Shown here one piece after another: positions 9,410 to 53,035 of a stretch of DNA of 64,000 bases (position 1 is its first letter; each line of letters opens with the position of its first letter). Made by a program: the position numbers and the translations under genes. The notes under the pieces were generated by a model. The model was not told where the DNA came from. It saw nothing but the letters and a program-made list of their open reading frames with translations, and did not search any database. The stretch covers positions 32,001-96,000 of the IMG/VR virus record IMGVR_UViG_3300014613_000017. One strand, written 5' to 3'. Source of the stretch: a virus.

Positions 9410-10135
9410 TTATTGTATTGCTGACTCCGCTACTTTAAATCCTAAATCTTCAGCTTCTTTTTTAACAAATCCACCATCTAAATGCATGCAATAAACCCTA
9501 TCTCTTACGTCCGACTTCACCAATTCATCTAATTTTCTCAAGGAGAGATGTACATTCCCTTCGTAATCAGCCTTACAAGTGTCTTGATAGAAATAATCAA
9601 AGACTCCACTGTGCAGATTTCCAAGGATGGTTTTTGGAATATCATTAGAATCTCCACTGTAATATGCAACTTTACCTTCAAACTGAATAACATATCCATA
9701 GCAATCTAGCTCTTTTACATGTGTAACATCTACAGACTCCACTAGCATTTTTAAATTATCAATGATTACATTGTTATGAAACTGTACTAAGTTATATGAG
9801 TTTTGTTTTACTCCCACCATTTTTAACAAGCGACTGATTTCTAAGAAGTAAGGTGCGTAAACAGTAACATTAGGCTTCATCATTTCTCCCATTGCATAAT
9901 AGCCGTAGAATATTAAATCCCCTAATGAGCCAACATGATCTGGATGTGTATGAGTTAATAATACTGAAATATCTTCAATTCCTTCTAATAGCCCTGCCTC
10001 AATGATTCGATCAAAAGTGTTGCTACCACAATCAATTAGAAACAAGCTTTTGTCTTTTTTGATAAATGCTCCATTGTTGCCTAGTTTTGTATTGAATGCA
10101 CTTCCTGTGCCAATAAATTTCAACATGTTATTCAT
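9410..10135 (-). CDS. apyc1: Metallo-beta-lactamase-fold hydrolase, Apyc1-like anti-Pycsar cyclic nucleotide phosphodiesterase
   Basis: GTGSAFN, FLIDCG, THTHPDHVGSLGDLIFY, YYSGD, DTCKADYEGNVHLS, YCMHLD match the Apyc1 subfamily as recalled. Confidence 0.8.
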   Translation of the reverse strand: MNNMLKFIGTGSAFNTKLGNNGAFIKKDKSLFLIDCGSNTFDRIIEAGLLEGIEDISVLLTHTHPDHVGSLGDLIFYGYYAMGEMMKPNVTVYAPYFLEISRLLKMVGVKQNSYNLVQFHNNVIIDNLKMLVESVDVTHVKELDCYGYVIQFEGKVAYYSGDSNDIPKTILGNLHSGVFDYFYQDTCKADYEGNVHLSLRKLDELVKSDVRDRVYCMHLDGGFVKKEAEDLGFKVAESAIQ

Positions 10136-10933: not shown

Positions 10934-11518
10934 TTAAGCGTTTTTTCTTTTCTTTCTAAGATGTGTAACTTTATTCTCACCTTGTTTTTCCAATGGGAAT
11001 GCCACTTCAATTGATCCTACACATTGTTTAGCTAGCTTCAATACATTGCTTAATCGTGTTCCTTGTAGTACTTTAAAATTCAAATCTACACAGCTAGAGC
11101 TTATATTTACTACACCATGTATGCTGAAATCTCCAACGGGAATCAACTTCTTACCAACACCTCTTCCAGCATGAAGACTTCCACTGTTAAATGAAATTTT
11201 CCCAATGCTATCTTCCCTGCCTAGACTTGCATCAATAGCTATAACAGTTTTTCCTTTTGGTATTTTTGCAACGCTTTCTTCTAAATTTAAGGCATGAACT
11301 GGCTCATCAATTGTGCCAAGTACATTTTCATATCCCAATTCTTTTAGGAAGCTGCCTACAAACGGAGCAAATGAATCTCCTGATGAACGATCTGTTCCTA
11401 TACATAGAAAGAATACATCTTTCGTCTTTACATGTTTATTGAAACTTGCAGACAGTGATTTCACATCCTCGAACACACCCAGTCTTACTCCTTCAAATAC
11501 ATCATCGTTTCCAGCCAT
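10934..11518 (-). CDS. yyaC: YyaC-like spore protease (GPR-related, DUF1256)
   Basis: FLCIGTDRSSGDS...LGTIDEPVHALNL...IAIDASLG...GVGKKL..VGD are family-typical motifs. Confidence 0.85.
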   Translation of the reverse strand: MAGNDDVFEGVRLGVFEDVKSLSASFNKHVKTKDVFFLCIGTDRSSGDSFAPFVGSFLKELGYENVLGTIDEPVHALNLEESVAKIPKGKTVIAIDASLGREDSIGKISFNSGSLHAGRGVGKKLIPVGDFSIHGVVNISSSCVDLNFKVLQGTRLSNVLKLAKQCVGSIEVAFPLEKQGENKVTHLRKKRKNA

Positions 11519-11759
11519 TATTTATGCCTCCTTATAGTTAATTAATTAGATAAGTTTTATAAATTGTATTTCTTTTTAATTTCCTCGTTTCTTCTTCCAC
11601 TGTCCTCAATATCCAGTTCAATCATTCTCGTCCATATCTTATTTAATACAAAATATGAAGTCAGATCTCTACTTTTCATCGCCTTTTCGCTTTCAGCATA
11701 TAATTCATCTTGTAGCGTCTTCCATTTATCCATAGTTTACCTCCATTAAAATAGAAGTT

Positions 11760-11966
11760 TTAATTAAACTCTTTTTTGTGTTTCTCAATAACTTTACGCA
11801 TCATTGTTTTACCACTTCTAGTTCCAATGAATACAGTCTTTGCTAATAGCCCTTCTGCATATAGTTTTAGATATGCCTTTTGCCATTCAAGCAACTCAAA
11901 ACCAAGATATTTTTCAGCGAAATAGGCAGGATCATTTTTACATTTTTGAAATTCTTGATTGTTCAC
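11760..11966 (-). CDS. 68-aa microprotein resembling the N-terminus of a large terminase ATPase
   Basis: KCKNDPAYFAEKYL...LLEWQK...TRSGKT (Q-motif plus Walker A-like). Confidence 0.65.
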   Translation of the reverse strand: MNNQEFQKCKNDPAYFAEKYLGFELLEWQKAYLKLYAEGLLAKTVFIGTRSGKTMMRKVIEKHKKEFN

Positions 11967-12011
11967 GACTTCTCCTCCTCCTAGCTAATATAAAATGGAA
12001 CTTTCGTTGGA

Positions 12012-12233
12012 CTATTCATACTGCTTTCTAAGCTTCTTCTTCACCAAATTTCGATCATATTTCTCAGCGTTGACACGCTTTTCCCTATTACACTTAGGAC
12101 AATACAGAATGTAATACGTTGCCATCTCATATCTTCCTGAATCATGATTTGCATACACACGATAGTCAGTATCAATATTTCGATAGTCATGTTCACACTT
12201 TAACTTTTTCAGAAGCGATTTAAAGAATTTCAT
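12012..12233 (-). CDS. Small zinc-binding protein
   Basis: CEHDY...CPKC. Confidence 0.65.
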   Translation of the reverse strand: MKFFKSLLKKLKCEHDYRNIDTDYRVYANHDSGRYEMATYYILYCPKCNREKRVNAEKYDRNLVKKKLRKQYE

Positions 12234-14489: not shown

Positions 14490-14621
14490 TTATTCGATAA
14501 CGTCATTTTCTTCGTCTTTTTCGTCATCTAGCCAAACTATCCATCCTTGCCCTCTAATCCCTTGTGTATCAAGGGTTTCAGGCGACTCTATAACACTTCC
14601 GTTCTTAAACACGATTTTCAC
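14490..14621 (-). CDS. 43-aa microprotein resembling the terminase ATPase NGS/Walker B segment
   Basis: Manual translation (GTG start, GGAGG RBS): VKIVFKNGSVIESPETLDTQGIRGQGWIVWLDDEKDEENDVIE; flanked by sites 14477 and 14637. Confidence 0.65.
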   Translation of the reverse strand: MKIVFKNGSVIESPETLDTQGIRGQGWIVWLDDEKDEENDVIE

Positions 14622-18668: not shown

Positions 18669-19667
18669 TTACTTAATCAAATCATATCCATATAAATTTT
18701 TAAATAACTCTGTCTTAAGTAGCAGCTTAATTACATTTGTATTTCTGTTTTCATATTTATCAACCTTCGTCATAGCTGTGTCAAACTGATCTCCAATGAT
18801 TTTTAAATGCTCTGGCTTAAATTCTCCATCTCTGTTATAGAGTTCATTAGCCATGTGCATCATACCTGATACTTGAATGTCTTTTGATTTCAAAAATTTA
18901 AGATCAAATACTTCTTTATAAATTACGAACTTTCGATTGATATAAAATAAGTCTAATTTTCCTTCTTGTTTTCCTCTTGTTGTTTTCTTGAATATAAATT
19001 CTGAATCTAATAGTTTGCTGGTACTTTGTCTGTCACTTACTGTATTTCCATTTTTATTAACATATTCAGTTTCTTTATCTGTTTTATGAAGTAAATCAAA
19101 TAGTGTTTCTGAAATCTCGATTGTGCGGAATGATCCATCTTTTTGATATAGCGTAGCTAAAAATTTTCCATCTTCCTCTTTTAAGTCCTGTGTGCGTAAG
19201 TTAAGGATTTCTGAAAACCCTTCTCCACTAATTCCCTCAAACAAAGCTAATAACACTGCTCTATCACCATAATTGATTAAATCCTCTAGTCTGTGTAAAA
19301 GCTGCTTTCTTGTAAATGCTGACTGCTTATATTTAGCTACAAACTGTTTAGACCACTCTAATTTATTAACGTTTGATAATGGATTCAGGTTGCTTTCTAC
19401 ATGCCCATTCTCATAAGCCCAATCAATATATTGTTCAAACTTAACTGCGTGATTATAAGCTGTATTAGCTGATGATACAGATAGTGATTTCATTACTTCT
19501 CCTAATTCATCAATCGACATATCGAACATATCTTTTCCAAATAGTTCTTCAGTTTTCTTAGCTGTTATAAAAGGATATGCATATAATTTACGTGTCTCAT
19601 TATGTTGGATTGTATTTAGATAATCAATTTTAATATCTCCATTATAAAAGTTTTCTTTATTTAACAT
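18669..19667 (-). CDS. yopR: YopR/MrpR(SroF)-like repressor with degenerate tyrosine-recombinase fold
   Basis: FYNGDIKIDYL..., QYIDWA, RAVLLALFEGISGEGFSEILNL parallel recalled SPbeta YopR; catalytic R and HxxR missing; synteny. Confidence 0.75.
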   Translation of the reverse strand: MLNKENFYNGDIKIDYLNTIQHNETRKLYAYPFITAKKTEELFGKDMFDMSIDELGEVMKSLSVSSANTAYNHAVKFEQYIDWAYENGHVESNLNPLSNVNKLEWSKQFVAKYKQSAFTRKQLLHRLEDLINYGDRAVLLALFEGISGEGFSEILNLRTQDLKEEDGKFLATLYQKDGSFRTIEISETLFDLLHKTDKETEYVNKNGNTVSDRQSTSKLLDSEFIFKKTTRGKQEGKLDLFYINRKFVIYKEVFDLKFLKSKDIQVSGMMHMANELYNRDGEFKPEHLKIIGDQFDTAMTKVDKYENRNTNVIKLLLKTELFKNLYGYDLIK

Positions 19668-19745
19668 TTTCTTTTCTTCTCCCCTATTATCTAATTTATA
19701 ATTTTTATTATATTTAATGTTATGTTTTAGGCTTCCCTTTTATTC

Positions 19746-21071
19746 TTAAATTAAACCTCTAAAGTATTTACTTATTCTTGATTCATCAATTTGATTATTA
19801 ATTTTACCATCTAATCTAATTATGCCTAGCTCTTTCCATAAAGGATTATCTATTTTAAAGTCTACTTTATCAAGGATTGATTTTAATTTTTCAAATTCTA
19901 AATTTTGTTTTTTCATTTCTGCTGCTAATCCAATATATCCTGCAAACAATTTGTTATAAGCCATAATTGATTCATTCTGATTTCTTGTTGATAAAAATTC
20001 GTCTGGATATAATCCAATCAGATACTCAAAGAATGTTGTTAGATACTGTCCAGTTTGTCTTGCTTCAAGTAATGACTTCATTGGAAACTCTCTGTCAATT
20101 GAATCTGCTAAAACTCTGTAGCTCACTAATTCTCCTGCTGTTATATTCATTCTTGAGCCTGTAGTTGTAACTCGATCACGCAACTCTGATTCTGATTTCA
20201 AAATTTGAACTACTGTATCTGCCAACCTGTTTTTTTCTAGCTCTTGAATACGTGCTGTAGGAATTGGTGTAGCCTTAGCTAACTGTGCTTGATACTGTTG
20301 AGCCTGTGCTGTAGTGTAGTTTGATATCATTACAACAAATCGGAAATCTAAGTCTGGATTTTCTGCATATGCTTGTTGAGATGCTAAACATCTATGGTAT
20401 CCATCAAGAATATCTAATCGTGTTCCTTCATTGATTGTAAGCACATTTTTCTTTCCATTGTATGATAGCTCTTCTCCATTGTCGCTAGTCTGTGTAGCAG
20501 CATTGAAGGCTAATGTCGTGTGTATTAACTGATCCTTTTTAAGCAACTCTTTAATTTCTTTTACGTTTTTCTTATAAATTGTTGGTTTAAATAACATTTT
20601 ATCCTTGCGAACAACTCTTGTTGCTTGTCGTTGAATCTCATAGTTATAATTTAGCTTTTTGGATTTCATTAACTGAGCAATCGTTTTGATGTCCAGTGAA
20701 GCAACATATAAGTTGTTTCCAATGTGGATCACGTTTTCAATTTCTAGTGGGAAAACAATATCATCTTCACCATGTACAAACATGTAATCGAATTGTCTTG
20801 CTTCTTTCATTTCAGCTTCAGTAAACCAATTATTAGGTGCAAATTCTTTTAATCCTGTTTTGACATAAAACTGTTCACTGAAGAGTGCTAACTCTCTTAT
20901 ATCTGCATCTTCTAATACTTCAGGCTGTGAAAAGTAATCCTCCACTCTTCCTTCTGTAATTCTATACTTTGATAACTCTTCCTTAATTTCTGATACTGCT
21001 TTTTTATTTGTAGAGATATATTGAATATTATCTTCAATTTTCTCTAAAAGTTCAGCTCGATTTTTGCTCAT
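19746..21071 (-). CDS. yopQ: YopQ(SroE)-like protein with DndB/DGQHR-type domain
   Basis: YNYEIQR, TLAFNA, GEELSY, LDILDGYHR; synteny with YopP/YopR. Confidence 0.75.
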   Translation of the reverse strand: MSKNRAELLEKIEDNIQYISTNKKAVSEIKEELSKYRITEGRVEDYFSQPEVLEDADIRELALFSEQFYVKTGLKEFAPNNWFTEAEMKEARQFDYMFVHGEDDIVFPLEIENVIHIGNNLYVASLDIKTIAQLMKSKKLNYNYEIQRQATRVVRKDKMLFKPTIYKKNVKEIKELLKKDQLIHTTLAFNAATQTSDNGEELSYNGKKNVLTINEGTRLDILDGYHRCLASQQAYAENPDLDFRFVVMISNYTTAQAQQYQAQLAKATPIPTARIQELEKNRLADTVVQILKSESELRDRVTTTGSRMNITAGELVSYRVLADSIDREFPMKSLLEARQTGQYLTTFFEYLIGLYPDEFLSTRNQNESIMAYNKLFAGYIGLAAEMKKQNLEFEKLKSILDKVDFKIDNPLWKELGIIRLDGKINNQIDESRISKYFRGLI

Positions 21072-21213
21072 CTGTTATGCTCCTTTTCCATTTTTTGTTT
21101 AATTTGATTATATAATAGCATTTTCTGTTTGTAAAAATCTAGTAGTAAAGTTTGTTGTCTTTACACTTACTTTATCATATTATGTCGTTTTATGTCGATA
21201 ACTTTATTTAATT

Positions 21214-22221
21214 TCATTCTTTATTATCTTGTAATTTTAGATTTAAAACGAACAACATCTCTTTAGACATACCCTTTAAAGCATCCAGTAAACATTCATG
21301 TGATACTTCTTTGTATAAATTATGATTTAAATTTCCTTCTAATGAATAATAACCTGTCATTTTCACTTCTTCTTCTTGTAGATATAGCTGCGTTGTAGCA
21401 AGATGCTTATGCTTACCTTTCTTCTGTGCATCTGTTATTGATCCTGTCAGTCTGTATGTGTTGGTTACTGCTGTCTTCTTAAATGAATGGAATGTGTAAT
21501 TTCTGTCCTCATGGTGTAGCTGTTTCTTAAGTCTCAACATCATGTCAGTCAGATTCTTTTTAGTTAATGTAAATACATTGCTTTGTCCTTCTACTTTAAG
21601 CTGCAATAATTCATTGTAGAAATCTCTACTGATTACCTCTAAATACTTTACATCTCCTTTACCAAACCCTGATACATAAACTTTTTCACCATCTGGTTTA
21701 AATTGCTTCCACTCTAATTCACGTAATTCTGATTCACGTAAACCTGTTTCAATGGCTGTTTTGATTATAAGTTGTTTTTCTAAATGCTTATTCTTTTCAA
21801 ATCTTATAGCTTCAAGATATTGTTCTACAACTTCCATTGGCATTGCTTCATAGCTGTTTGCATTGTTCTTTAGTGTGTCGATTAGTTCAAAGAAAGTTAA
21901 GTCTGATTTGATTGCCTTAGTAGCATTTAGATACTTATACATTGATTTAACACTACTTGCGTAACGATTGATGGTACTGTTAGATTGCTTGTCATAAAAG
22001 CTATTCAAGAAAGTCTTAAATGAATCATAGTCCAGCAACTCTAATTCTTCTGCTGTTATAGTGTTAATTGATTTATTATATACATCTGATAAGAAACGAG
22101 TAATGTCTCCTCTATATCCTTTAGTTGTATCTGCTGATCGCTTACCTTTTTCATAAAGAAAATCCTCAATTGCTTTTCCTGCTCTTGTTGTAAAGTCTGT
22201 TACTACTGCTAAATTCGTCAT
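21214..22221 (-). CDS. yopP: YopP(SroD)-like tyrosine recombinase family protein
   Basis: SAM-like N-domain, IETGLRESEL, KGD, FHSFKKTA, HKHLATTQLY. Confidence 0.8.
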   Translation of the reverse strand: MTNLAVVTDFTTRAGKAIEDFLYEKGKRSADTTKGYRGDITRFLSDVYNKSINTITAEELELLDYDSFKTFLNSFYDKQSNSTINRYASSVKSMYKYLNATKAIKSDLTFFELIDTLKNNANSYEAMPMEVVEQYLEAIRFEKNKHLEKQLIIKTAIETGLRESELRELEWKQFKPDGEKVYVSGFGKGDVKYLEVISRDFYNELLQLKVEGQSNVFTLTKKNLTDMMLRLKKQLHHEDRNYTFHSFKKTAVTNTYRLTGSITDAQKKGKHKHLATTQLYLQEEEVKMTGYYSLEGNLNHNLYKEVSHECLLDALKGMSKEMLFVLNLKLQDNKE

Positions 22222-48348: not shown

Positions 48349-48493
48349 AGACATGATTCTGATGGGATATATTGTGTGGATGATTAAGAGTGAAGATTTG
48401 AGAAGTCGGATTGAGGATAAAGTGATGAAGATGGATATGAATATTAAGGATAGAGAAGGTAAATAGAGATTGAGACACAAGGAGGAAATGAGA

Positions 48494-49114
48494 ATGAGTG
48501 AGAAAAAGCCACATGTACTAGGACTAAACAGCGACTATTTAGATTTAGAGTTGCCATCTACAATGGGAGATTACCAAATGTGGGAGGCTTATCGAGATCG
48601 TAAGATTATCTTCAATGACACTGTGGACTCTCAGATTGTTAATACAATTGTTCATTGGATTATTAAGTGGAATGAAGAAGATGACAAGGCTGGACTTGTT
48701 GGAGATCAACGTAAAAAAATACAAATTTTCATTACCTCAAATGGTGGCGATGTCGTAAGTGGTTTTGCGGTTCTAGATGCTGTCAAAGCAAGTAAAACTC
48801 CTGTAGAAACAGTTGCATTGGGTTGTGCAGCTTCAATGGGAATACTCCTTCTTATGAGTGGGCATCGAAGATTAGCATATCCGAACACTGTACTATTAAT
48901 CCATGATGGATCGCTATCGGCTAGTGGCAGTAGCAACAAGGTGAAAAGCACAATGGCATTTTATGAGAAACTTGATGCACGAGTTAAGAAATTCATCTTA
49001 GGTAATACGAAAATTAGTGAAGAGTTGTATGACAAGAATAGTGATATTGAATGGTTTATGTTCGCAGATGAAGAAGGATTAGAACTAGGAATTATTGATG
49101 CAATTTTAGATTAG
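48494..49114 (+). CDS. clpP: ClpP-family serine protease
   Basis: ITSNGGDV, AASMG (catalytic Ser), LLIHDG (His), LGIIDAI. Confidence 0.88.
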   Translation: MSEKKPHVLGLNSDYLDLELPSTMGDYQMWEAYRDRKIIFNDTVDSQIVNTIVHWIIKWNEEDDKAGLVGDQRKKIQIFITSNGGDVVSGFAVLDAVKASKTPVETVALGCAASMGILLLMSGHRRLAYPNTVLLIHDGSLSASGSSNKVKSTMAFYEKLDARVKKFILGNTKISEELYDKNSDIEWFMFADEEGLELGIIDAILD

Positions 49115-49185: not shown

Positions 49186-49292
49186 AAACAAAAGGACAAG
49201 AGGAAGTCATGAGCCTCTTGAATGGTGTACCTTCGCACACCGTCCTTTTGTTTATTTGTGTTTAGCGAAGGAAATACAATGCGAAGGAAATG
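49186..49292 (+). promoter_or_regulatory. Structured 5' leader (three-way junction plus RBS-sequestering pseudoknot)
   Basis: AAACAAAAGGAC/GTCCTTTTGTTT stem; loop CCTTCGCA complementary to TGCGAAGG at 49280-49287. Confidence 0.6.
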
Positions 49293-50333
49293 ATAAGAAT
49301 GGCAGGAAGAAAGGCTCACACTTATAAGGAAGTAGAAGAGCATTTAAACAACTACGGTTATACATTAGTAAGCACACAATACGTTAATCATACTAACAAG
49401 TTGGATATGAAGTGCAACAATAATCATGAATGCTCTATTAGCTTTAAAAATTTTAAAAACGATAAAAGATGTAGACAGTGTTTCTATGATAGAAGTAGAG
49501 AGAAACAAAGAATGAGCTTTGATGAAATCATAGAAAGAATAGAAGAACATGGATTTGAACTTTTATCAGACGACTCAAATTACGTGAATTCCAAAAGTGA
49601 GATAATAGTAAAATGCCCTAATGGTCATGAATATGTCACATCAATTCAGAACATAAAATCTTCAAAATATAAATGCAAGCGATGTGCTGATGAGAAAAAG
49701 TCTATTGAAAAAAGAACAAGTGGGAATATAGTTATAGAGTCATTTATAAATAAAGGCTTAATCCCAAAATTTAATGTTGAGTTTTATAAAAATGCAAATC
49801 AGAAGCTACCATATATATGCAAGAAACACATCTCTGAAGGAGTAAAATACACTACTTACGATGGACTGAAAAGAGGATTTTTTGTTTGTAAAAGTTGTTA
49901 CATTGAACACAACAGAGCCGAGAACCACTGGAATTGGAGTAGTGGAGTAACATGCTTGTCAGACCATCTTAGGACTGTAATATTGGATTGGAAGAAAGAA
50001 AGTATTAAACAATCAAACTATAGATGCGTAATAACTGGGGATGATTTCAATGTCATTCATCACCTATATAGCTTCGACAATATACTGAAAGACACTTTAA
50101 AAAATACAGGTATAGATTTAAGAAGAGAAATCAGTGATTACACTGACTCAGAATTAAAAATAATAGAAAAAGAGTGTATAAGAATACACAGTGAAAAAAT
50201 AGGCGTTTGTTTAAGAAGTGATATCCACTTGTTATTTCATGATGTATTCGGCTACGGCAATAATACTCCTGAACAATTTGAGGAATATAAAAATAGATTT
50301 AATAATGGAGAATTTGATGGACAGCTAAAATAG
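49290..50333 (+). CDS. Putative homing endonuclease with repeated Zn-binding modules and HNH-like C-terminus
   Basis: Repeated C.NGH...C..C modules; CVITG...IHHLY...GVCL...H.LFH..FGYGNNT. Confidence 0.7.
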
Positions 50334-50376: not shown

Positions 50377-51261
50377 ATGACAACTAAGAAAGAATCAACT
50401 AAAAAACCTGCCGTAAAAAAGACTTGTCTCAAGTGTTCCAAAGAGCAGGTCTTTTCTAACTTCTATAGTACGACTGACACTGACTACTACGAAGACGGAA
50501 AATTACCTATTTGTAAAGGTTGTTGCCAAAGAAATATCGAGGCAAAAGGATTCGAAGGTTTTCAAGCATTGATGAGAATGATAAACAAACCAATTTATGA
50601 TGATTTGTTTAAGGGTGATTATTTTGAGTACGTAAAGAATATTAATTCGTTACCACAGTATCGCTCTAATACTTTTCTTGATAGTTCTTTATTTAAGGAT
50701 AACAAGTCCTTAGAGCTAACTAAGAGAGCTAAACCGAAAGACCTTACTGCTGATGAACTTCGAGAAGCTGAAGACTTTTTTGGTCTCGGTTTTAGCGAGC
50801 AGGAGTATATATGGTTGAATTCAGAGTTTGAAGACTATGGTTCACAATTCGATATATCTGCAAAACCAATGCAAAACTTAATACGTGAAATCTGTCTTAC
50901 TCAGCTAGACATTAGAAATAAGAGAACAGCTAAACAAGATGTAAAAAATGAATTAAAAACACTACAAGATTTGCTAGGCTCGTCAAATTTGAAGCCCATG
51001 CAAGAGACAGGAGCACCCTCAATAGATCAAGAAACATTCGGAACTTTAATTAAGAAGTGGGAAGATTCAACCCCTATACCCGATGATGAAATGTGGAAAG
51101 ACACTGATACAATTGGTAAATATTTAAAAGTGTGGTTCACAGGTCATCTAATGCGAATGTTCAGCATTGAGAATAAAGATGAAGAAGAGTATTATGCTGA
51201 AATAAATAAATACACTGTTGAAGCTTCTGAAGACGAAGGTGAAGAAGATGACAGGACATAA
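50377..51261 (+). CDS. Putative terminase small subunit (YonG-like)
   Basis: Directly upstream of terL; N-terminal CLKC...CKGC; TFGTLIKKWE. Confidence 0.5.
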   Translation: MTTKKESTKKPAVKKTCLKCSKEQVFSNFYSTTDTDYYEDGKLPICKGCCQRNIEAKGFEGFQALMRMINKPIYDDLFKGDYFEYVKNINSLPQYRSNTFLDSSLFKDNKSLELTKRAKPKDLTADELREAEDFFGLGFSEQEYIWLNSEFEDYGSQFDISAKPMQNLIREICLTQLDIRNKRTAKQDVKNELKTLQDLLGSSNLKPMQETGAPSIDQETFGTLIKKWEDSTPIPDDEMWKDTDTIGKYLKVWFTGHLMRMFSIENKDEEEYYAEINKYTVEASEDEGEEDDRT

Positions 51262-53035
51262 AAACTTTCAGGTTAATCGAAACAAAGCTACAAAAGGCGT
51301 AAATATTTTCAACTCTGGACGAAATCATAGAACCAAGCAATCTAAATCAGAGAAGATGATGAACGGGGTTGCAATATGGGCTTCATGGTATCGTTTTCGT
51401 ATGGATATTTTTGTAAAAGATTACTTAGGAATACAACTTAAACTGTTTCAGATTTTATTGATTTACGCAATGCAAAACAATCATTTCTTCATGTATCTCG
51501 CAAGTCGTGGACAAGGAAAATCGTTCTTATCTGCTGTTTATGCAGTGTCTCGTTGTATTCTTTATCCAAATACAATCGTCGTGATTGCCTCAGGAACAAA
51601 AGGTCAAGCCACCAGCGTCCTAAAGAAAATAGAAGAAATGATGCCCGACTCTCCTAATCTAAGGCGAGAAATATCAGATATAAAAACAGGAGCAAACAAC
51701 GCAGAGTGCTCATTTCATAATGGTTCTGTAATACGGGTCGTAACTTCAAATGACAATGCAAGATCGGCTCGTGCCCACATAATTCTAGTTGATGAATTCC
51801 GTATGGTTGACTTACAAGTAATTTCAAAAGTATTAAGAAAGTTTTTAACTACACCAAGACAAGCTGGTTATCATGCTAATCCTGAGTTTGCTCACCTACA
51901 AGAACGTAACAAGGAGATTTACTTAAGCTCATGTTTCTATAAATCACATTGGTCATGGGCAAGAGCACAAACCTACTTCAAGGCAATGGTAGAAGGCAAA
52001 AAGTATTTCATATGTAGCTTACCCTATCAGTTAGCCATCAAAGAAAATCTTCTTATGAGGGATCAAGTTTTAGATGAAATGTCTGAATCAGATTTCGACC
52101 CTATTGGTTGGGAGATGGAGATGCAAGCATTATGGTTTGGAGAGAATGAACGCTCTTACTTCAGTTTCGAAGACTTAAATGTAAACAGGAAAGTAGCAAA
52201 AGCATTTTATCCTTCTGAAATAGCTGAACATATAAATGATAAAAAAATAGCTATTAAGAAAGAAAAAGGCGAGATTAGAATAGTCTCAGCAGATATTGCA
52301 GCAAAAGGCGGTTCTGCCAATGATGCGACTGCACTGTTTTGTGTAAGACTTATTCCAATTAGTAATGGTTATGAGAGACAAGTGGTATATGCTGAAACTT
52401 TTGAAGGTGGAATTGTCACAGACCAAAGTTTGAGAATAAATCAGCTTTATCATGAATTCGCAGCAGATTATATTGTGCTTGATACGATGAACGCAGGTAT
52501 TTTCTTACTAGATATTCTTGGTCAAGGTCAAATAAACGTAAGAAATGGACAGGAATACCCTCCATTAAAATGTATGAACGATGATGATTTGGCGAAACGC
52601 TGTGTCTATTCGGATGCTCCGAAGGTTATTTACTCTATTCAAGGTAGTGCAAAATTAAATAGTAAAATTGCCGTTTCAATGAGAAACGCCTTAAGAAATA
52701 AAAAACTTAAACTCATGATTCATGAAAATGACGCAGAAGAGATATTAACAAGCATTAAGGGGTATAGCAATCTACCAGAAGACTTAAAGATTAAGTTTAA
52801 AATGCCATTTATACAAACAAGCTTACTTATTAACGAAACAATAAACCTTGAAGCAAGTTATAACGACCAAGGTGAAGTATCACTAAAAGAAGTGGGAAGT
52901 GCACGAAAAGATAGATACTCCTCACTAAGTTATTTAAACATGTTCGCTGATACACTTGAGATTAAAAATCGAAAGCAAAAAACAGATGTTGATATTTCAA
53001 AAATGTTTATGATTAAAAAAGGCAAGTCTTATTAA
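51248..53035 (+). CDS. terL: Terminase large subunit (YonF-like)
   Basis: ASRGQGKS Walker A, FHNGSVI, ILVDEF Walker B, SADIA nuclease Asp, KDRYSS. Confidence 0.92.
   Translation: MTGHKNFQVNRNKATKGVNIFNSGRNHRTKQSKSEKMMNGVAIWASWYRFRMDIFVKDYLGIQLKLFQILLIYAMQNNHFFMYLASRGQGKSFLSAVYAVSRCILYPNTIVVIASGTKGQATSVLKKIEEMMPDSPNLRREISDIKTGANNAECSFHNGSVIRVVTSNDNARSARAHIILVDEFRMVDLQVISKVLRKFLTTPRQAGYHANPEFAHLQERNKEIYLSSCFYKSHWSWARAQTYFKAMVEGKKYFICSLPYQLAIKENLLMRDQVLDEMSESDFDPIGWEMEMQALWFGENERSYFSFEDLNVNRKVAKAFYPSEIAEHINDKKIAIKKEKGEIRIVSADIAAKGGSANDATALFCVRLIPISNGYERQVVYAETFEGGIVTDQSLRINQLYHEFAADYIVLDTMNAGIFLLDILGQGQINVRNGQEYPPLKCMNDDDLAKRCVYSDAPKVIYSIQGSAKLNSKIAVSMRNALRNKKLKLMIHENDAEEILTSIKGYSNLPEDLKIKFKMPFIQTSLLINETINLEASYNDQGEVSLKEVGSARKDRYSSLSYLNMFADTLEIKNRKQKTDVDISKMFMIKKGKSY

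What the first reader, a model, noticed from the sequence alone, without database searches (positions are those of the whole stretch)
11760..11966. Microprotein mimicking the terminase ATPase N-terminus (Q-motif plus Walker A)
Seen: 68 aa, KCKNDPAYFAEKYLGFELLEWQK...TRSGKT, then stop; good RBS; flanked by junction sites; 40 kb from the intact terL. Known: large terminases begin with a K(C)xxDPxYF-type helix, a W/YQ adenine-binding motif and RQxGKT, and Avs/STAND immune sensors recognise the terminase ATPase. Inference: a decoy or dominant-negative inhibitor of terminase-sensing immunity, or of competing phage packaging, rather than debris.
Basis: inference. Interest (0 to 1): 0.75.

Follow-up and report, generated by a model that had tools for sequence, protein, structure and literature searches.

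The report
Conserved mini-protein derived from large terminase
An SPbeta-like Bacillaceae phage carries, 39 kb from its real DNA-packaging motor gene, a selectively maintained 68-residue gene that copies only the opening segment of a T4-type packaging ATPase; it cannot be an enzyme, and its job (probably molecular mimicry) is untested.

Summary
The ORF is real: 11760-11966 on the minus strand, 68 aa, GTG start, strong RBS. It is homologous to the opening segment of gp17-type large terminase (TerL): three helices, the adenine-binding Q motif, strand 1, the P-loop and the next helix.

- **Homology:** the family profile hits T4 gp17 at E 2e-7. An AlphaFold model superposes on gp17 residues 105-181 at 1.8 A.
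- **Not debris:** about 16 divergent clusters of 46-75 aa exist, all in SPbeta-like small-gene arrays, with no conserved neighbour. dN/dS against a close relative is 0.08.
- **Not an enzyme:** there is no Walker B. GK[ST] survives in only 2 of 18 members, and five short members lack the loop entirely.
- **What is conserved:**
- **Origin:** it is nearer to gp17-type TerLs than to the phage's own YonF-type TerL.
- **Distribution:** it is patchy among close relatives and absent from SPbeta and phi3T. An Apyc1-like anti-defence gene lies 1.6 kb downstream.

A decoy or dominant-negative role is plausible but untested. This scan has already noted terminase-fragment mini-genes on other DNA, and I found no published description.

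The parts
11760..11966 (-). CDS of the 68-aa terminase-lead-in mini-protein (GTG start, TAA stop)
   Evidence: Family of about 16 clusters. dN/dS 0.08 against L073.
11972..11982 (-). Shine-Dalgarno AGGAGGAGGAG, 5 nt before the GTG
   Evidence: Read directly from the sequence.
11856..11960 (-). Residues 3-37: three predicted helices (3-11, 13-21, 27-37). This is the conserved core of the family (motif KCKxDxxYFAEKYLGxELxxWQK).
   Evidence: AlphaFold model, block-mean pLDDT 88-95 over residues 1-40. Mean pairwise identity 51% here against 20% for residues 38-68. Aligns to gp17 108-150.
11880..11885 (-). W28-Q29, equivalent to the adenine-binding Y142-Q143 of T4 gp17. Q29 is invariant in the family.
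11805..11825 (-). G48-T-R-S-G-K-T54, a Walker-A-like loop. It is intact here but not conserved in the family.
   Evidence: GK[ST] in 2 of 18 members, GxxxG[KR]x in 9 of 18. K to N in variant P0026, from the same 90%-identity cluster as P0005.
11766..11810 (-). Residues 53-67: basic C-terminal helix, equivalent to the helix after the P-loop in TerL
51218..53035 (+). Comparator, not part of the element: the resident intact YonF-type large terminase
   Evidence: Pfam Terminase_6N. 53.6% identical to SPbeta YonF. Only 12.6 bits with the mini-protein family profile.

Best explanation
This is a domesticated, non-catalytic fragment of a gp17-type large terminase. It is a basic 68-aa stand-alone protein that keeps the helical part of the ATPase domain before the P-loop (the lead-in, including the Q motif) plus a vestigial strand-1/P-loop/helix.

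**Shown here**
- It is homologous to TerL.
- It is under purifying selection.
- It occurs as an independent, mobile small gene in the accessory arrays of SPbeta-like phages of Bacillaceae.
- It lacks what ATP hydrolysis needs.

**Inferred**
- It acts by binding rather than catalysis. It would work as a mimic of the TerL lead-in that competes with a full-length terminase for a partner docking on that region, either a small terminase or packaging component, or a host protein that recognises TerL.
- Because it sits inside a long co-directional array with no promoter of its own, it is probably made with the other genes of this array, which I take to be early or middle by analogy with the SPbeta yor/yop region (not shown here), and not from the prophage.

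The partner is not identified.
For: - **Homology:**
- **Stand-alone family:** about 16 clusters at 50% identity, all 46-75 aa. An exhaustive single-sequence search gave no longer relative. Profile searches for longer proteins return only full-length TerLs of about 610 aa.
- **Selection:**
  - Window against L073: 12 synonymous-only and 7 non-synonymous codon changes, dN 0.044, dS 0.52, ratio 0.08.
  - The gene is 88.6% identical at DNA level, while the immediately flanking DNA does not align; the only other matches are two displaced ~290-nt stretches at 70-72% identity.
  - Deep pairs have saturated dS with ratios of 0.2-0.7.
- **No conserved neighbour** in 8 contexts, so it moves as a unit.
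- **Contexts** carry SPbeta marker families YorE, YorF, YopE and AimR.
- **Not an enzyme:** the protein ends 14 aa after the loop, and the loop is degenerate or absent in most members.
- **Accessory behaviour:**
  - Absent from SPbeta, phi3T and SPbetaL4.
  - Absent from the Lederbergia prophage whose TerL is 82% identical.
  - Present as a 49-aa short form in the Bacillus sp. FJAT-22090 prophage.
- **Counter-defence genes nearby:** an Apyc1-like gene 1.6 kb downstream on the same strand, and three DNA methyltransferases beside the L067 and L074 homologues.
- **Precedent:** N-terminal TerL segments are the small-terminase docking sites in P22 and lambda (review PMC9611059, for P22; lambda from my own knowledge).
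Against: - No partner was found, and no binding was shown.
- The conserved residues are the same ones conserved in full TerLs. They may only hold up the small fold, so conservation alone does not prove a mimicry surface.
- The homologous segment is not the extreme N-terminus that binds small terminase in P22 and lambda.
- Five large lytic Bacillus phages (SPO1, SP10, phiNIT1, AR9, Bastille) have no TerL matching the family profile, so no obvious competitor target exists among them.
Confidence: 0.5

Rival explanations
1. Immune decoy or inhibitor. The protein occupies or blunts host sensors that recognise the large terminase ATPase (Avs1-3, Upx). This is a special case of the binding-mimic reading.
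For: - TerL is a known trigger of Avs1-3 and Upx.
- Upx is modelled to grip unfolded ATPase strands, including strand 1, which this protein carries (PMC13601566).
- It lies in an accessory array with an Apyc1-like anti-defence gene.
- Its distribution is patchy.
- The PhiV-1 terminase chain of the Avs3 complex (8dgc_E) is a structural match: Z 3.9, rmsd 2.2 A over 65 residues.
Against: - Avs2 buries 2834 A2 of a folded, ATP-bound ATPase domain. A 68-aa piece without the sheet, Walker B or a conserved Walker A cannot present that.
- The family conserves the helices, not the loop.
- A fragment that did bind could just as well trigger the sensor. T4 vs.8, a TerL-like paralogue, is toxic with EcAvs2.
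- No sensor was available to test.
Confidence: 0.15
2. Packaging interference or regulation. The free lead-in titrates a small terminase or caps a large terminase, either of a competing phage or satellite or of the phage itself before late genes come on.
For: - It follows microprotein logic, being a fragment of a multi-subunit motor protein.
- TerL N-terminal segments dock small terminase in P22.
- It is nearer to gp17-type TerLs than to its own TerL, which would fit a foreign target.
Against: - Five Bacillus lytic phages have no matching TerL lead-in.
- The gene has no promoter of its own for prophage expression (weak evidence).
- The homologous segment is not the mapped docking site.
Confidence: 0.2
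3. Exapted small basic helical domain whose present job has nothing to do with terminase, for example nucleic-acid binding or a minimal phosphate-loop nucleotide binder.
For: - All members are basic (pI 7.9-10) and have basic tails.
- The same lead-in module occurs twice in tandem, without any P-loop, in an unrelated 420-aa protein, P0027.
- The G-x-R-x-G-K pattern persists in 8 of 18 members (one more, P0012, matches only the looser GxxxG[KR]x).
Against: - No DNA-binding fold stands out. Winged-helix and sigma-region-4 rows have Z 3.1-3.5, below gp17.
- The loop Lys and Thr are freely replaced.
Confidence: 0.2
4. Decaying debris: a left-over 5' piece of a once complete second terminase gene.
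For: - It is a fragment of a larger protein family.
- Some members are shorter (46-56 aa).
Against: - dN/dS is 0.08.
- Start and stop are conserved in a close relative, and the family spans about 16 divergent clusters down to 31% identity.
- It has a strong RBS.
- It is the best-conserved piece of its neighbourhood.
- No remnant of the rest of a terminase lies downstream.
Confidence: 0.03

Closest known systems
T4 gp17-type large terminase, N-terminal ATPase subdomain I (PDB 2o0h, 3cpe, 3ezk)
   Same: - Sequence and predicted fold match gp17 residues about 105-181: three lead-in helices, the Y/W-Q adenine motif, strand 1, the P-loop and the following helix.
- The KCxxDxxYFAExY signature is shared with environmental gp17-type TerLs.
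   Different: - It is 68 aa rather than about 610 aa.
- It has no Walker B, catalytic Glu, coupling motif or nuclease domain.
- It lacks the roughly 10-residue insert between the FAEKY motif and the Q motif.
- The Arg is displaced by one position, and the loop is not conserved in the family.
T4 vs.8, a stand-alone protein homologous to the TerL ATPase domain (PMC13601566)
   Same: It is a phage-encoded extra copy of terminase ATPase sequence outside the packaging gene. Its role is also unknown.
   Different: According to the paper, vs.8 keeps Walker A and Walker B and the whole ATPase-like fold, and it activates EcAvs2. This protein is only the first sixth of that domain.
Resident YonF-type terminase of SPbeta-like phages (window 51218-53035; SPbeta yonF)
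   Same: It has the same general lead-in pattern (FVKDYLGIQLKLFQ ... SRGQGKS).
   Different: It is only distantly alike: 12.6 bits with the family profile, and the mini-protein scores E 0.47 with a YonF-type profile. The mini-protein is therefore not a recent copy of the phage's own gene.
MicroProteins of eukaryotes (Id, LITTLE ZIPPER) and the SaPI/PICI packaging-interference proteins Ppi and Rpp (recalled from general knowledge)
   Same: These are small proteins that work by titrating partners of a larger machine. Ppi and Rpp target the terminase system.
   Different: - Ppi and Rpp are not terminase fragments, and they bind the small subunit.
- No binding has been shown for this protein.

Membership tests
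Functional large terminase (TerL) ATPase, gp17 / Terminase_6N type | Lead-in helices with the adenine-binding Q motif | tested here: met
   Profile against gp17 gives E 2e-7, with W28-Q29 on Y142-Q143. Structural match rmsd 1.8 A.
Functional large terminase (TerL) ATPase, gp17 / Terminase_6N type | Walker A loop ending G-K-[ST] | tested here: met
   G-T-R-S-G-K-T is present in this protein. It survives in only 2 of 18 family members, and the Arg is shifted by one position.
Functional large terminase (TerL) ATPase, gp17 / Terminase_6N type | Walker B with catalytic Glu, and the rest of the ASCE sheet | tested here: not met
   The protein ends 14 residues after the loop. The gp17-type profile matches only profile positions 31-92.
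Functional large terminase (TerL) ATPase, gp17 / Terminase_6N type | C-terminal RNase-H-like nuclease domain | tested here: not met
   Absent, and no terminase remnant lies downstream.
Functional large terminase (TerL) ATPase, gp17 / Terminase_6N type | Passes the Pfam Terminase_6N or TerL_ATPase model | tested here: not met
   No Pfam family even at E 10.
Stand-alone terminase lead-in mini-protein family (alignment A1; undescribed) | 46-75 aa, KCKxDxxYFAEKYLGxELxxWQK core, basic tail, stand-alone gene in SPbeta-like small-gene arrays | tested here: met
T4 vs.8-like stand-alone TerL ATPase paralogues | Whole ATPase-like fold with both Walker A and Walker B | tested here: not met
   Only the first strand and loop are present. 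The description of vs.8 comes from PMC13601566.
Anti-defence decoy or inhibitor of terminase sensors (Avs1-3, Upx) | Binds the sensor and blocks its activation by TerL | not testable with these tools
   No sensor sequence was at hand. The only hints are context and literature.
MicroProtein (dominant-negative fragment of a larger protein) | Derived from a domain of a larger protein | tested here: met
MicroProtein (dominant-negative fragment of a larger protein) | Binds the parent protein or its partner | not testable with these tools
   No partner was identified. See Tried and rejected for the one co-fold attempt.

The most novel reading that the evidence does not exclude
Phages keep a class of microproteins cut from the opening segment of the large terminase. 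These act as mimics that jam either terminase-sensing immunity or the packaging initiation complex of rivals or satellites. That would be a first case of microprotein-type regulation aimed at a viral packaging motor, and it seems to recur in unrelated phage groups: this scan's notes report similar mini-genes in crAss-like, T4-like and huge phages.
Probability: 0.3. Interest if true: 0.8.

Novelty: new variant of a known kind. Interest (0 to 1): 0.55.

Why it matters
The large terminase is both the engine of DNA packaging and one of the main molecular patterns that bacterial immune sensors detect. A selectively kept, non-catalytic copy of its opening segment, sitting among counter-defence genes, is a concrete and cheap-to-test candidate. 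It could be a new way of interfering with terminase recognition or with packaging.

The protein is 68 aa, so it is easy to synthesise, express and use as bait. If it binds a sensor or a small terminase, it would define which part of TerL that partner reads. If it does neither, it shows that the TerL lead-in is an independently folding module that evolution reuses, as in the 420-aa protein with two tandem copies.

I found no publication describing such a family.

Tried and rejected
- **Co-fold:** mini-protein with residues 40-335 of the resident TerL. No verdict (score 0.00, controls not run), so it counts neither for nor against binding.
- **Foldseek against the PDB:** nothing at E <= 0.001. 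The Foldseek-independent aligner (VIA-align 2) was needed.
- **Pfam on the protein:** nothing.
- **Word-based search for longer relatives, single sequence:** nothing.
- **Genome-contig scan with the family:** 44 pattern matches, none a relative.
- **IMG/VR scans:** only full-length TerLs. No further mini-protein apart from the window's own record, which the tool leaves out.
- **megablast of the region against known phages:** no match.
- **Sequencing runs:** one DNA holder, a groundwater metagenome that is probably the source.
- **'Junction sites':** TAAATTATAA is enriched (96 against 33 expected) and follows gene direction, but none lies next to the ORF.
- **Second claimed terminase fragment on this window (14490-14621, motif FKNGSVI...RG...LDDE):**
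  - No PHROG, Pfam, PDB or phage tblastn hit.
  - No homologue in any fetched locus.
  - E 9.4 and 2.1 with the two TerL profiles, although at the right profile positions.
  - I do not count it as a terminase piece or as a partner.
- **Recent capture from the resident terL:** rejected.
- **Split or intron-interrupted terminase exon:** rejected, because the resident TerL is complete and nothing terminase-like follows the ORF.
- **P0003 and P0019:** repeat proteins whose scores add up by chance.

Full report
**1. What is there**

On the minus strand, 11760-11966 encodes a 68-aa protein. It begins with GTG, 5 nt after AGGAGGAGGAG (11972-11982), and ends in TAA.

It sits in a long run of short, tightly spaced, co-directional minus-strand ORFs.
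- The upstream neighbour is 12012-12233 (73 aa).
- The downstream neighbours are 11557-11733 (58 aa) and a YyaC-like spore protease homologue at 10934-11518.
- No promoter-like or terminator-like site stands out right next to it.

The window is bases 32001-96000 of a 127,183-bp IMG/VR virus record. Its only listed sequencing-run holder is a groundwater metagenome.

The phage is SPbeta-like.
- Its large terminase (51218-53035, Pfam Terminase_6N) is 53.6% identical to YonF of SPbeta and phi3T.
- It is 82-85% identical to prophage genes in Lederbergia citrisecunda and Bacillus sp. FJAT-22090.
- The mini-gene lies 39.3 kb from that terL.

**2. Is the terminase likeness real?**

Yes.
- Alone, the protein hits only PHROG 5989 (terminase large subunit) at E 4.3e-5 and nothing in Pfam.
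- A tblastn against 50,697 phage records gives 406 individually weak hits, and most of the 40 listed lie on annotated terminase genes of T4-like and other large phages.
- An exhaustive HMMER search of 1.84 billion representatives found 16 small relatives of 46-75 aa. It also found two false hits that are repeat proteins.
- The profile of the 18 small proteins (alignment A1) matches T4 gp17 in the PDB at E 2e-7 over gp17 108-173.
  - W28-Q29 falls on Y142-Q143 of gp17, the adenine-binding motif (my own knowledge of gp17).
  - G52-K53-T54 falls on G165-K166-T167.
- 14 of 18 members hit the same terminase PHROG.
- The AlphaFold model has mean pLDDT 88 and pTM 0.71, with helices at 3-11, 13-21, 27-37 and 53-67.
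- Its best match among 48,161 chains is T4 gp17 (Z 4.8, rmsd 1.8 A, 67 of 68 residues, gp17 105-181). The PhiV-1 terminase of the Avs3 complex ranks fifth.
- The Z values are modest, as expected for 68 residues. The low rmsd at full coverage agrees with the sequence result.
- Conversely, a profile of 12 full-length gp17-type TerLs run over all 1678 open frames of the genome puts this ORF first (E 1.7e-7), level with the true TerL.

- Fourteen residues follow the GKT.
- The Arg lies one position later than in the terminase R-Q-x-G-K.
- I could not find the 'junction sites'.

**3. Debris or gene?**

It is a gene.
- Every relative is a complete small ORF. Those whose contigs I fetched lie in arrays of small same-strand genes, and the longer contigs carry SPbeta marker families (AimR, YorE, YorF, YopE-YndK).
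- None shares a neighbour with the window within 4 kb, apart from a YorE-like gene on the opposite side.
- Against the closest relative (L073, 7 amino-acid changes) there are 12 synonymous-only and 7 non-synonymous codon differences. That gives dN 0.044, dS 0.52 and a ratio of 0.08.
- The 255 nt around the gene are 88.6% identical, while the flanks do not align.
- Deeper pairs have saturated dS and ratios of 0.2-0.7.

The gene is patchily distributed.
- The family profile finds only YonF itself in SPbeta, phi3T and SPbetaL4 (E 1.2e-4, which also serves as a positive control).
- It finds nothing in a staphylococcal SPbeta-like phage or in C. difficile phage LIBA2945.
- It finds nothing in the Lederbergia genome.
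- It finds a 49-aa short member next to an HNH gene in Bacillus sp. FJAT-22090, on the same contig as that prophage's terL and 70 kb away.

**4. What is conserved, and what it cannot do**

- Residues 4-37 average 51% pairwise identity. Residues 38-68 average 20%.
- F16, L25 and Q29 are invariant. K10, D12 and E18 are nearly so.
- The Walker-A-like loop is G-x-R-x-G-K-x in eight members.
  - It keeps GK[ST] in only two.
  - It is missing in five short members.
  - It has lost its Lys in P0026, a variant from the same 90%-identity cluster as P0005.
- There is no Walker B, no catalytic Glu and no sheet. The protein therefore cannot be an ATPase, and the loop is not the selected feature.
- All members are basic (pI 7.9-10).

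**5. Where it came from**

- The family profile scores 25-45 bits on gp17-type TerLs from IMG/VR. These were picked with a motif from the family, so the set is biased.
- The unbiased PDB search gave 33.9 bits for T4 gp17.
- It scores only 12.6-20 bits on YonF-type TerLs, including the resident one.
- A YonF-type profile gives the mini-protein E 0.47.
- It is therefore not a recent duplicate of the phage's own gene.
- gp17-type TerLs carry a roughly 10-residue insert between the FAEKY motif and the Q motif that the family lacks.
- No full-length TerL came within E 1e-3 of the single sequence in the exhaustive search, so the split is old.
- Five large lytic Bacillus phages (SPO1, SP10, phiNIT1, AR9, Bastille) have nothing matching the profile.

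**6. How it may work**

What is shown: a selected, mobile, non-catalytic terminase lead-in. What follows is inference.

The most economical mechanism is binding. A free copy of a surface that a full TerL presents could compete for whatever docks there. There are three candidate versions.

(a) A host terminase sensor.
- TerL is the trigger of Avs1-3 and Upx, and Upx is modelled to thread unfolded ATPase strands including strand 1 (PMC13601566).
- The neighbourhood holds an Apyc1-like anti-Pycsar gene at 9410-10135 (51.6 bits against a cut-off of 50).
- The L067 and L074 homologues sit beside three DNA methyltransferases.
- Against this, Avs2 buries 2834 A2 of a folded ATP-bound domain, which this fragment cannot offer.
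- The TerL-like T4 protein vs.8 activates rather than blocks EcAvs2.

(b) A small terminase or packaging partner.
- The TerS site on P22 TerL maps to its first 23 residues (PMC9611059).
- However, the segment copied here is not that extreme N-terminus.

(c) A reused basic helical module unrelated to terminase.
- The same module occurs twice in tandem, without a P-loop, in a 420-aa environmental protein.

My odds are as follows.
- 0.9 that this is a real, selected, terminase-derived, non-catalytic gene.
- About 0.5 that it acts as a binding mimic at all. Within that, roughly 0.15 for a sensor and 0.2 for packaging.
- 0.2 for an unrelated role.
- 0.03 for debris.

**7. Comparison with what is known, and novelty**

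- It is not a member of the functional TerL family. Walker B, the nuclease domain and the Pfam model all fail.
- It is not vs.8-like, because it lacks the whole fold.
- It works, at most, like a microprotein.
- A literature search for terminase-derived microproteins or truncated terminases returned nothing.
- This scan's own notes list similar terminase-fragment mini-genes in other genomes: an SPbeta-like prophage, a crAss-like phage, T4-like phages and huge phages. The phenomenon has therefore been seen before in this scan on other DNA.
- Those notes are unchecked by me. They are not sequence-similar to this family at the level the look-up detects.

**8. Verdict**

- Novelty: a new variant of a known kind (stand-alone terminase-derived phage protein, or microprotein).
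- Interest: 0.55.

Noticed in passing
window 9410-10135 (-): A 241-aa metallo-beta-lactamase-fold protein passes the Pfam gathering score for Anti-Pycsar protein Apyc1 (51.6 bits against 50). It lies on the same strand, 1.6 kb downstream of the mini-gene.
   Followed up: partly
window, whole (e.g. 709, 1844, 4083 ... 63509): TAAATTATAA (up to 1 mismatch) occurs 96 times against 33 expected. It follows the direction of the genes: minus strand up to about 31 kb, then mostly plus strand. It may be a phage-specific promoter or -10-like element.
   Followed up: partly
window 14490-14621 (-): A 43-aa ORF (GTG start after GGAGG) reads FKNGSVI...RG...LDDE, like the strand before Walker B of terminases. 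It has no support from Pfam, PHROGs, PDB or tblastn, no homologue in related loci, and E 9.4 and 2.1 with the TerL profiles.
   Followed up: yes
window 10934-11518 (-): A YyaC-like spore protease homologue (phrog_8268, E 4.7e-34) is encoded by the phage two genes downstream of the mini-gene.
   Followed up: no
L075:160-1422 and L076:2822-4084 (protein P0027): A 420-aa environmental protein carries two tandem copies of the terminase lead-in/Q-motif module without any P-loop. It sits next to a DUF5754 gene and, in L076, near a resolvase and a TnpB-like gene.
   Followed up: partly
L085:1486-1635 (-), Bacillus sp. FJAT-22090 contig C22: A 49-aa short family member (lead-in only, basic tail) lies directly downstream of a 217-aa HNH-like ORF, 70 kb from the prophage's YonF-type terL on the same contig.
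   Followed up: partly
window 18669-22221 (-): An MrpR-like recombinase, a DndB-like (DGQHR) protein and a tyrosine integrase lie in a row.
   Followed up: no
window 49290-50333 (+): An HNH endonuclease gene (phrog_559, E 6e-20) is inserted between the head-maturation protease (48470-49114) and the YonG-like gene that overlaps terL.
   Followed up: no
L009:4773-5129: In an IMG/VR contig (GC 0.29), a gp17-type terminase reading frame stays open for only 119 aa, ending shortly after the Walker A. It may be an intron- or intein-interrupted or broken terL.
   Followed up: no
L097 (Staphylococcus phage SPbeta-like, KT429160.1 32923-34720): The YonF-type terminase is annotated as two adjacent CDS (233 and 363 aa), and the tblastn match comes in two pieces.
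   Followed up: no
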